Origin: Flaccisagitta enflata
Taxonomy: Eukaryota
Length of the DNA stretch: 64,000 bases
Direction: 5' to 3'
NCBI GenBank assembly: GCA_965153355.1
Contig: OZ231126.1
Coordinates: 23,560,001-23,624,000, forward strand
Shown: positions 23,025-24,170 of the stretch, piece by piece
Position numbering within the stretch: the stretch's first letter is position 1
How the letters are laid out: each line of letters opens with the position of its first letter
Notes under the pieces: model-generated
Told to the model about the DNA's origin: nothing
The model's input: the letters and a program-made list of their open reading frames with translations, nothing else
Databases searched by the model: none
Position numbers and translations under genes: made by a program

Positions 23025-23456
23025 GGAAAAGGTATCAAAATTCCACTCGAGAAAAAATATTCCTTTTTCACTAGCCACCATTAAGGCATTACAAAGCCAT
23101 GATCTGACATTTCACATAAGTTTACGTGATCTCTTAGTTTGAAAACGAAAGGTATTCAAGCTCTTCTTAATTGATCGAGAGACAGTGAGTGCAAAATTGC
23201 AAGTAAGCGAATTGATTCTATCTTTTATCGGCCATAGCAACGCGCTGGATGAAACGGCATTATAAGTTACCCCTGCCACGAACGCGCTTTCCGACTGACC
23301 AACATAGTAACAAAGAGCGTCGCTCGAGAGCTCCGTCGCGGCGGTTATAACTGTCGAAACGTATAACACGAACTCGACTGCATGAGCTGACCGAAAGACT
23401 CAGGGGATGTTTCTAGTGAAAGCGTGACAAACGCGTTTTAAGGAGTGAGACCATTG

Positions 23457-23538
23457 AAAAAAGTCTCAGACCCATCAAGGATCGAACCCCCAAATTATAG
23501 CAGGGGAGTTGGATGACTTATCAGTGCGCCACGAAGCA
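23457..23538 (-). pseudogene. tRNA-derived (SINE-head-like) sequence with a Pol III T6 terminator
   Basis: Minus strand GCTTCGTGGCGCACTGATAAG (A-box-like), GGGGGTTCGATCC (B box), then TTTTTT; stems degenerate. Confidence 0.6.
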
Positions 23539-23681
23539 TAACATAATACTTGGTGATGGGATTAGGCTAATTTCAAAAGTGATTGGCAAATTATTTCCCA
23601 AATGTAGTTCAAGACCTGTGCAAGAGTACCTTTTCCCAAAGATCGCTATATGAAAGGGCATTCACAACAGAGTAGTCTATC

Positions 23682-23763
23682 TCCACGGTGGCGTACATGT
23701 AGCGAGCGCGACTGTAATTCTAAAGGTGTGAGATCGAACCCTGCAATCCTCGGGAATTTTTTT
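23682..23763 (+). pseudogene. tRNA-derived (SINE-head-like) sequence with a Pol III T7 terminator
   Basis: GGTGGCGTACATGTAGCG (A-box-like), GACTGTAATTC (anticodon-arm-like), AAAGGT, GAGATCGAACCC (B-box-like), then TTTTTTT. Confidence 0.6.
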
Positions 23764-24170
23764 CAATGGCCCTACTGCCTAAAACGCGTTAATCTTGGAA
23801 TACGAGCAAAACGCGTTTCAGGCTTTCACTAGAAACATCCCCTCAGACGAGATGTTATCTTTTTCTGAGCCATCCTAGTTAGGGGAACGCTTCGATCAAG
23901 AGAATGTTCCTCGTGATCCTGATCTGTGATACCAGCGCGTTGACGATTGACAACGGACAGAACCAAATCATCAGATCAGTGAAACGCCTGAAGGGCTAGA
24001 GATTTATTTGAAACCGATTCCATTTTAAACGGAATAATTACAGTAGATTTGCGATTGAACATGTATATGTACCATGATCCTCAATATCTCTAGAGACTCT
24101 AGCACTGCGTTTATGAAATCCATTAAGACTTTGCTCCAACTTGCCTGAGCGCGCATCAAACCCGCTTTTT

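What the first reader, a model, noticed from the sequence alone, without database searches (positions are those of the whole stretch)
23403..23842. DNA-transposon MITE carrying two divergent tRNA-like Pol III cassettes
Seen: perfect 21-bp TIRs starting GGGG and a TCA duplication. Inside are two outward-pointing tRNA-like units (minus 23538-23463, plus 23682-23756). Each has a GTGGCG A-box-like motif, a B-box-like motif (GGTTCGATCC and AGATCGAACC) at tRNA spacing, then T6/T7 followed by the same CAATGG...AAAACGCGTT. The two heads differ strongly between the boxes, while the promoter boxes and terminators are retained. Established: 3-bp TNA TSDs with G-rich termini typify PIF/Harbinger; A box, B box and a T-run define a type 2 Pol III unit; TFIIIC-bound tDNAs can act as chromatin insulators. 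Inference: a cut-and-paste element that spreads paired Pol III transcription units or TFIIIC boundary sites, unlike a SINE because there is no tail and the layout is symmetric. By eye the heads resemble the Arg/Trp/Asn tRNA type, but I cannot assign identity.
Basis: partly seen in the sequence, partly recalled or inferred. Interest (0 to 1): 0.8.

Follow-up and report, generated by a model that had tools for sequence, protein, structure and literature searches.

The report
DNA transposon carrying tRNA-promoter cassettes
A small cut-and-paste transposon family in an animal genome carries worn-out tRNA genes at both ends that keep only the RNA polymerase III promoter boxes and terminator, and these signals seem to be preserved only while the element is itself jumping, which is unexpected for DNA that moves without an RNA step.

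Summary
The element is real. It has 21-bp TIRs and a TCA duplication, and is one of about 100 copies (72 full-length analysed; 468-477 bp; 3-bp TNA duplication; target C|TNA|G, as in NuwaII/PIF-Harbinger). Both arms derive from tRNA but have lost the cloverleaf: Rfam and ARAGORN miss them, and adding structure to a host-tRNA model lowers their score. In 50 copies the A/B boxes change at 1.5 per column against 3.6 in the rest of the heads. In 11 copies multiplied as passengers of another transposon the boxes are not spared (few changes). Longer relatives with the same ends carry 2-5 such units, outermost pointing outward, with strongly diverged sequence between the boxes (12 units in 5 kb; 1 in 252 kb of background). 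No free SINE source was found. Best reading (0.6): Pol III/TFIIIC sites selected in cis for the element's own mobility, acting by occupancy or transcription rather than through an RNA product. Not shown: transcription, binding, an autonomous partner. A far more abundant sister family lacks the units. Ten paper searches found no such DNA transposon; the nearest analogue is TRIMp3 (LTR elements). Unchecked notes from this scan report similar cassettes in transposons of other genomes.

The parts
23400..23402 (+). Left target-site duplication (TCA)
   Evidence: 40 of 60 independent insertions have identical 3-bp flanks
23403..23423 (+). Left TIR, 21 bp
   Evidence: 181 exact 17-mer hits in the genome, 0 for the reversed control
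23424..23439 (+). Left subterminal region with one AAACGCGTT motif (23429-23437); 25 bp present in other copies are deleted here. Inferred binding sites for the transposase or its DNA-binding partner
   Evidence: role inferred
23457..23462 (-). T6 run (T7 in the consensus), Pol III terminator-like
23463..23538 (-). Left tRNA-derived unit pointing outward; B box 23479-23487, A box 23519-23531; cloverleaf lost
23571..23646 (.). Conserved central core, as constrained as the boxes (1.66 changes per column); similar sequence lies upstream of the first unit in longer relatives
   Evidence: boundaries were chosen after seeing the conservation profile
23607..23634 (+). Possible remnant of a third unit: B-box-like 9-mer (23607-23615) and a T-run (23631-23634; T5 in the consensus)
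   Evidence: weak score 16.3 in the consensus; inference
23682..23756 (+). Right tRNA-derived unit pointing outward; A box 23689-23700 (lacks the G18G19 pair), B box 23732-23740; cloverleaf lost
23757..23763 (+). T7 run, Pol III terminator-like
23781..23821 (+). Right subterminal region with two AAACGCGTT motifs (23782-23790, 23809-23817)
23822..23842 (-). Right TIR, 21 bp
23843..23845 (+). Right target-site duplication (TCA)

Best explanation
The element is a non-autonomous PHIS-type (NuwaII / PIF-Harbinger-like) DNA transposon, moved in trans by a transposase not found here. It is a short internal-deletion form of a lineage whose ends carry arrays of tRNA-derived type-2 Pol III units. Shown: tRNA ancestry, loss of the cloverleaf, retention of A box, B box, spacing and T-run, and sparing of these only in self-transposing lineages. 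Inferred: the boxes bind TFIIIC/TFIIIB, probably giving about 75-80-nt transcripts that stop just before the subterminal repeats. Also inferred: this occupancy or transcription keeps the ends open, nucleosome-poor and unsilenced, or helps them pair, so copies with intact boxes transpose more often. The RNA sequence itself matters little.
For: Boxes 66 changes in 43 columns against 400 in 110 for the rest of the heads (50 A copies, Fitch counts, binomial p=6e-13); the gap holds for non-CpG sites and for each base. Random same-size blocks do as well in 7 of 20,000 trials. The four box CpGs carry 1-3 transitions each; free CpGs in the heads carry 3-18. Across three subfamily consensuses about 80% alike, 7 of 43 box columns vary against 39 of 110 (Fisher p=0.014); T-runs 0 of 14. 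Internal control: 11 B1 copies share the same flanks inside another 3.2-kb transposon, so they multiplied without their own transposition, and there 8 of 11 head changes hit the boxes. Diverged relatives with the same ends keep A-B spacing 42-45 nt and mostly a T-run 22-25 nt after the start of the B box while the sequence between changes: 12 units in 5,060 bp of ends, 1 in 251,599 bp of background, at most 1 in each of 60 shuffles. A real tRNA gains from structure (73.4 against 48.7 bits), the arms lose (e.g. 9.8 against 19.5 bits).
Against: No transcript or binding data. RNA contigs in two metatranscriptome runs span the TIR and inner parts together, which fits DNA carry-over or read-through and cannot show a short RNA. 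The replicate in subfamily B2 (8 copies) is in the same direction but not significant (14 of 69 changes, p=0.09). The passenger control rests on 35 changes in all. Singleton alleles are as frequent in boxes as elsewhere, which I read as free decay after insertion, though the count saturates in variable columns. Boxes are imperfect: the right A box lacks G18G19, the left B box of subfamily B lacks C61, a lineage seen in L080/L154 has lost the left B box, and 48 of 72 copies keep both B-box cores. A sister family with a similar end has 1,394 exact hits and no units in 72 kb around 24 hits, so the units are not needed for high copy number. The central core is equally conserved, so a non-Pol III factor could explain part of the pattern. 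The score threshold was set; L220 and L225 ends have no unit above it. No autonomous partner.
Confidence: 0.6

Rival explanations
1. The units are decayed passengers (captured tRNA or SINE heads). The apparent conservation comes from uneven mutation rates or from how I drew the regions.
For: No cloverleaf and no Rfam hit; the B2 test is not significant; the unit-free sister family is more abundant; tRNA-derived heads are common in animal genomes (general knowledge).
Against: Sparing holds for non-CpG sites and each base and disappears in passenger copies. [quoted passage not shown] 67 of 69 and 59 of 59 head-motif hits lie in copies of the element, so no free SINE of the same sequence was seen (most matched by coordinate, by eye).
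Confidence: 0.12
2. The conserved boxes and central core are binding sites for the element's own proteins (transposase or Myb/SANT partner) or another host factor that took over old tRNA sequence; Pol III machinery is no longer involved.
For: Boxes, core and subterminal repeats show similar constraint (1.0-1.7 changes per column); both heads begin with the same six bases; several boxes deviate from the host tRNA consensus.
Against: A box, B box, their 42-45-nt spacing and a downstream T-run are kept together in many diverged units, which is the Pol III requirement and not that of a single protein site.
Confidence: 0.12
3. The RNA products matter: the units make small Pol III RNAs that act in trans, for example as decoys against small-RNA silencing, in the manner of viral Pol III RNAs (analogy recalled, from no call).
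For: Each unit is a complete promoter-to-terminator cassette, and longer elements carry several.
Against: Sequence between the boxes is the fastest-changing part, and folding is no better than shuffles (z -0.2 to +0.3). A product acting in trans would not give selection copy by copy, which is what the passenger contrast suggests.
Confidence: 0.1
4. The host keeps the boxes after insertion as chromatin boundaries.
For: TFIIIC-bound tRNA genes can act as barriers (established knowledge, not checked by a call); each copy offers paired sites.
Against: Boxes decay in passenger copies and carry as many singleton changes as the rest; host selection on some 50 scattered young copies is unlikely.
Confidence: 0.06

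Closest known systems
NuwaII group of the PHIS (PIF/Harbinger, ISL2EU, Spy) superfamily, Han et al. 2015, PMC4482050 (passages and section 8 read)
   Same: 3-bp TNA duplication with preferred target C|TNA|G; TIR of 13-46 bp starting GG. Here C at -4 in 35 of 60 and G at +4 in 36 of 60 insertions.
   Different: No transposase or Myb/SANT ORF found with these ends; the paper's main text has no occurrence of 'tRNA'.
TRIMp3: Helenus, Ajax, Cassandra, Kojima 2024, PMC10886601 (abstract and passages read)
   Same: Short non-autonomous elements with tRNA- or 5S-derived sequence in which promoter boxes are conserved and the RNA is probably not a working tRNA.
   Different: These are LTR retrotransposons, where the promoter makes the transposition template. 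Here the element has TIRs and a 3-bp duplication, the units point outward, stop after about 77 nt and cannot template the element. The paper's main text has no occurrence of 'DNA transposon'.
tRNA-derived SINEs (general knowledge)
   Same: Head with A and B boxes and a decayed cloverleaf.
   Different: No body or tail, terminator right after the head, fixed place inside a TIR element, no free copies of these heads seen.
Dada DNA transposons, Kojima and Jurka 2013, PMC3706591 (passages read)
   Same: DNA transposons tied to tRNA and snRNA genes.
   Different: Dada inserts into such genes; this element carries tRNA-derived units inside its TIRs and inserts at TNA sites.
Zator DNA transposons (PMC12905397, passages read)
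   Same: 3-bp TAA/TTA duplications and TIRs of similar size (33 bp there).
   Different: Here TCA and TGA duplications also occur, with the C..G flanks of NuwaII; no Zator transposase search was done.

Membership tests
PHIS NuwaII / PIF-Harbinger | 3-bp TNA target-site duplication | tested here: met
   40 of 60 independent insertions identical (31 of them TNA); 14 more TNA on both sides with a different middle base; 6 other. 14 paralogous empty-site matches for the L002 flank hold a single TAA (overlapping loci not removed).
PHIS NuwaII / PIF-Harbinger | Target preference C|TNA|G | tested here: met
   C at -4 in 35 of 60, G at +4 in 36 of 60
PHIS NuwaII / PIF-Harbinger | TIR 13-46 bp starting GG | tested here: met
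   21-bp perfect TIR starting GGGG
PHIS NuwaII / PIF-Harbinger | Autonomous partner with DDE transposase and Myb/SANT ORFs sharing the ends | tested here: inconclusive
   PF13359 gave 4 short hits of 14 candidates; none has this TIR within about 5 kb. Long copies hold nested repeats, no transposase recognised. The searches ignore introns and are lower bounds.
Zator | Zator-type transposase; TAA/TTA duplication | tested here: inconclusive
   TTA and TAA are commonest (26 of 40 identical TSDs) but TCA (4) and TGA (1) occur; transposase not searched
tRNA gene | Cloverleaf with intact stems (RF00005, ARAGORN) | tested here: not met
   0 genes; no RF00005 hit at E<=10 in the window or 10 copies; structure lowers the score
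Type-2 Pol III unit | A box and B box at tRNA spacing | tested here: met
   spacing 43-44 nt against 44-46 in host class I tRNAs; box scores below most host tRNAs
Type-2 Pol III unit | T-run terminator shortly after the B box | tested here: met
   T6/T7 25 nt after the B-box start; T7 in 51 (left) and 53 (right) of 72 copies
Type-2 Pol III unit | TFIIIC binding and Pol III transcription | not testable with these tools
   only assembled contigs of RNA runs were available
tRNA-derived SINE | Free-standing copies with body, tail and variable-length TSD | tested here: not met
   67 of 69 and 59 of 59 head-motif hits are in the TIR element; the 2 others show no similarity to it. Exact motifs would miss a diverged SINE.
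TRIMp3 (Helenus/Ajax/Cassandra) | Two direct LTRs, PBS and PPT, 4-5-bp TSD | tested here: not met
   inverted ends and 3-bp TSD
Dada | Inserted inside tRNA or snRNA genes | tested here: not met
   flanks of the copies are unrelated non-tRNA sequence; the tRNA-like parts are internal

The most novel reading that the evidence does not exclude
Cut-and-paste DNA transposons can use host Pol III machinery as a cis part of their life cycle: arrays of tRNA-derived promoter-terminator cassettes beside each end raise transposition by recruiting TFIIIC/Pol III, and are kept by selection on the element alone. If the unchecked notes on hAT, Ginger and other TIR elements hold, this is a recurrent, undescribed design across superfamilies.
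Probability: 0.45. Interest if true: 0.85.

Novelty: new variant of a known kind. Interest (0 to 1): 0.7.

Why it matters
Pol III promoters in mobile elements are explained by the need to make an RNA template (SINEs, TRIMp3). A DNA transposon has no such need, so conserved boxes point to another use: opening chromatin, shielding the ends from silencing, or pairing them. The family gives a compact 470-bp test object and a natural control (passenger copies). It would also make DNA transposons a source of dispersed TFIIIC sites and tRNA-like pseudogenes, and suggests a cis element that might improve transposon vectors.

Tried and rejected
tRNA gene: rejected (ARAGORN; relaxed thresholds gave only inconsistent calls; Rfam; folding z about 0). 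tRNA-Cys origin of the right arm, suggested by its anticodon-loop-like stretch: host tRNA-Cys scores below Trp/Arg/Asn; the isotype stays unassigned. Independent SINE insertions: rejected. Autonomous partner: long TIR pairs proved to be nested insertions; four PF13359 loci lack the ends; a homologue search with the 97-aa fragment found nothing; the representatives search gave 8 proteins, mostly short fragments, which hit no element interior convincingly (one E=0.33 match); a 46-kb stretch between two related ends showed no recognisable transposase. Sequencing runs: the query held 420 of the 468 element bases plus 48 of flank; RNA rows had small shares, and laid contigs do not show a short transcript. 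Upstream regions of host tRNAs showed no obvious shared motif with the units, by eye only. Papers: 10 searches listed none on a DNA transposon carrying Pol III cassettes; I saw listings and abstract starts for most; passages of PMC3845634 were irrelevant, PMC6431247 had no hits, and of PMC11893794 (a Harbinger-derived protein regulating a 7SL gene) I saw only the abstract and outline. Repbase and Dfam could not be searched and no supplements were read, so a prior database entry is not excluded.

Full report
1. The observation. The window holds a 440-bp element at 23403-23842 with a perfect 21-bp TIR and TCA on both sides. Two units point outward, each with an A-box-like and a B-box-like motif 43-44 nt apart and a T6/T7 run 25 nt after the start of the B box. 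ARAGORN finds no tRNA in the window and Rfam no tRNA at E<=10; neither arm folds better than shuffles.

2. The family. The own genome (G000, 794 Mb, 9 contigs) gave 40 full-length matches of 40 candidates scored (137 seen), 88-94% identical apart from the window copy itself, and 181 exact hits to a 17-nt TIR motif, 0 for the control. That suggests about 100 copies. I analysed 72 copies with both TIRs 350-520 bp apart: subfamily A (53 copies, consensus 468 bp), B1 (11) and B2 (8), with B about 80% identical to A. Truncated copies and copies with nested insertions were left out. After counting once the copies that share flanks (10 B1 and 2 A dropped), 40 of 60 insertions have identical 3-bp flanks, 14 have TNA on both sides with a different middle base, and 6 are otherwise changed; C precedes in 35 and G follows in 36. 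An empty paralogous site carries a single TAA. This matches the C|TNA|G target and GG-starting 13-46-bp TIRs given for NuwaII, a PHIS group close to PIF/Harbinger (PMC4482050, section 8). Zator also makes TAA/TTA duplications and is not excluded. No autonomous partner was found.

3. Are the arms tRNA-derived? I collected host tRNAs from clusters in the same genome. All nine arm sequences tested align almost without gaps to Arg, Trp, Asn or (one) Ala tRNAs; at most 1 of 500 shuffles reached the score in any case. Because the arms were picked by eye I also scanned blind: they rank 2nd-3rd of 5,114 windows by alignment and 1st-2nd of 10 hits with box weights. A sequence-only model of 21 host tRNAs finds the window's right arm at E=1.2e-4 and the left only by its B box; the B2 consensus left arm is found over nearly the full model (E=0.007). 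With the cloverleaf added, a true tRNA rises from 48.7 to 73.4 bits while arms mostly fall (9.8 against 19.5 in L170; 9.6 against 15.6 in L161); one unit of a relative (L219) is level at 15.7 against 15.2. So ancestry is tRNA, the fold is gone, and the isotype cannot be fixed. The heads are not a free SINE: 67 of 69 and 59 of 59 exact head-motif hits are inside copies (11 new places fetched and checked, the rest matched by coordinate by eye).

4. What is conserved. In 50 A copies (3 near-duplicates dropped) parsimony changes per column are: ends 0.98, T-runs 0.57, boxes 1.53, rest of heads 3.64, central core 1.66, rest of centre 4.31. Boxes against rest of heads: p=6e-13; the gap persists without CpG and for each base; same-size random blocks match it in 7 of 20,000 trials. 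The ends are partly conserved by my selection of copies, the boxes are not. Homopolymer alignment can hide T-run changes, but T7 is the length in 51 and 53 of 72 copies. Across the three subfamily consensuses 7 of 43 box columns vary against 39 of 110 (p=0.014); against the whole centre the difference is not significant (p=0.12). B2 alone gives p=0.09. The B1 copies all sit at one site in another 3.2-kb transposon, so they were multiplied passively. There the pattern vanishes: 8 of 11 head changes fall in boxes, and constrained regions carry 24 changes in 258 columns against 11 in 185. The numbers are small, but they argue against a mutation-rate artefact and against host selection, and for selection during the element's own transposition.

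5. Longer relatives. A search with a diverged end (L067) found six more places whose ends are closer to it than the A/B ends are. Their ends carry several units: in L219 four above threshold on one strand, all pointing to the TIR; in L217 three toward the TIR, by the tRNA profile, and weaker ones inward; in L242 two or three toward the TIR, by the profile, and one inward. L218 with L244 forms a complete element of about 2.1 kb that joins an L067-type end to an L242-type end with nested insertions, showing how short two-ended forms arise by internal deletion; I infer the same origin for the window element. Sequence between the boxes is strongly diverged among these units (seen by eye), while A box, B box, spacing and usually the T-run remain. 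At one threshold, chosen, there are 12 units in 5,060 bp of ends, 1 in 251,599 bp of background and at most 1 in each of 60 shuffles. L067 and L217 stay collinear over about 19 kb of the C3 stretch, starting at the TIR, and a related end lies 44.5 kb from L217; this may be one very large element, but no transposase was recognised in it. Against necessity: a sister family with a similar end motif has 1,394 hits and no units near 24 of them.

6. How it most likely works. Shown: a TIR element with tRNA-derived promoter-terminator cassettes under constraint tied to self-transposition. Inferred: TFIIIC binds the boxes and recruits TFIIIB and Pol III; short transcripts would end at the T-run just inside the subterminal repeats. 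Since no RNA can template the element and the RNA body drifts freely, the useful effect is probably local: open, unsilenced chromatin at the ends, or clustering that favours end pairing (0.6). Rivals: passengers (0.12), sites for another protein (0.12), functional small RNAs (0.1), host insulators (0.06). RNA-run contigs could not test transcription.

7. Comparison and novelty. As a mobile element it is a new family of a known kind. The Pol III cassettes have their nearest published analogue in TRIMp3 LTR elements (PMC10886601), where the promoter has an obvious job; Dada relates to tRNA genes as targets. Ten searches of the open library found no DNA transposon with such cassettes; subscription papers, supplements, Repbase and Dfam were not seen. 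This scan holds no note on this sequence or genome but has unchecked notes on similar cassettes in hAT, Ginger, foldback and Harbinger-like elements of other genomes. I did not test them and do not count them as support; my reading was set before I saw them.

8. Verdict. Observation confirmed; interpretation partly supported; new variant of a known kind; interest 0.7. What this case adds is a quantitative sign of selection on the boxes, a passenger control, and the multi-unit parent architecture.

Noticed in passing
L107:271-3442 (G000:C1, about 30812878-30816049) and 10 similar loci: A young 3.2-kb element (96-99% identical copies) with short inverted ends carries the B1 copy inside what looks like an interrupted reading frame; superfamily not determined.
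   Followed up: partly
L217, L241, L245-L247, L242 (G000:C3:80312061-80356571) and L067/L172 (G000:C1:79306044 onward): Two loci are collinear at about 80% identity over about 19 kb of the C3 stretch starting at the TIR, and a related end faces it 44.5 kb away: possibly a giant, cargo-laden member of the family. A short hAT-like C-terminal remnant (recognised from memory, not tested) lies inside.
   Followed up: partly
flanks of the 60 independent insertions: 14 have TNA on both sides but a different middle base, more than the 6 with any other change; unexplained (repair of the staggered target, or exchange between copies).
   Followed up: no
L080, L081, L141, L154, L218, L242: Other repeats with GTCY-type microsatellites (Helentron-like by recall) have inserted repeatedly into the T-runs of the units, splitting terminator from TIR.
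   Followed up: no
L143:915-1163, L181-L204: A short sister family with a similar end motif, 1,394 exact hits mostly unpaired (its two ends differ), with no tRNA-like units.
   Followed up: partly
L045, L101-L106 (G000:C4:75.7-76.15 Mb): A large repeated tRNA gene cluster with about 30 tRNA types in units of roughly 5.3 kb; sequence upstream of tRNA-Trp looks like the end of a 5S rRNA gene (by recall). Separate tandem arrays of tRNA-Arg(TCT) on C7 and tRNA-Cys on C8.
   Followed up: no
window 23571-23646: The conserved core shows a loose repeat of about 12 bp (a CAA-purine motif six times) and an imperfect palindrome; seen by eye, role unknown.
   Followed up: no
L083, L084: Two truncated copies are interrupted after about 106 bp by an LTR-retrotransposon-like element with long open frames.
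   Followed up: no
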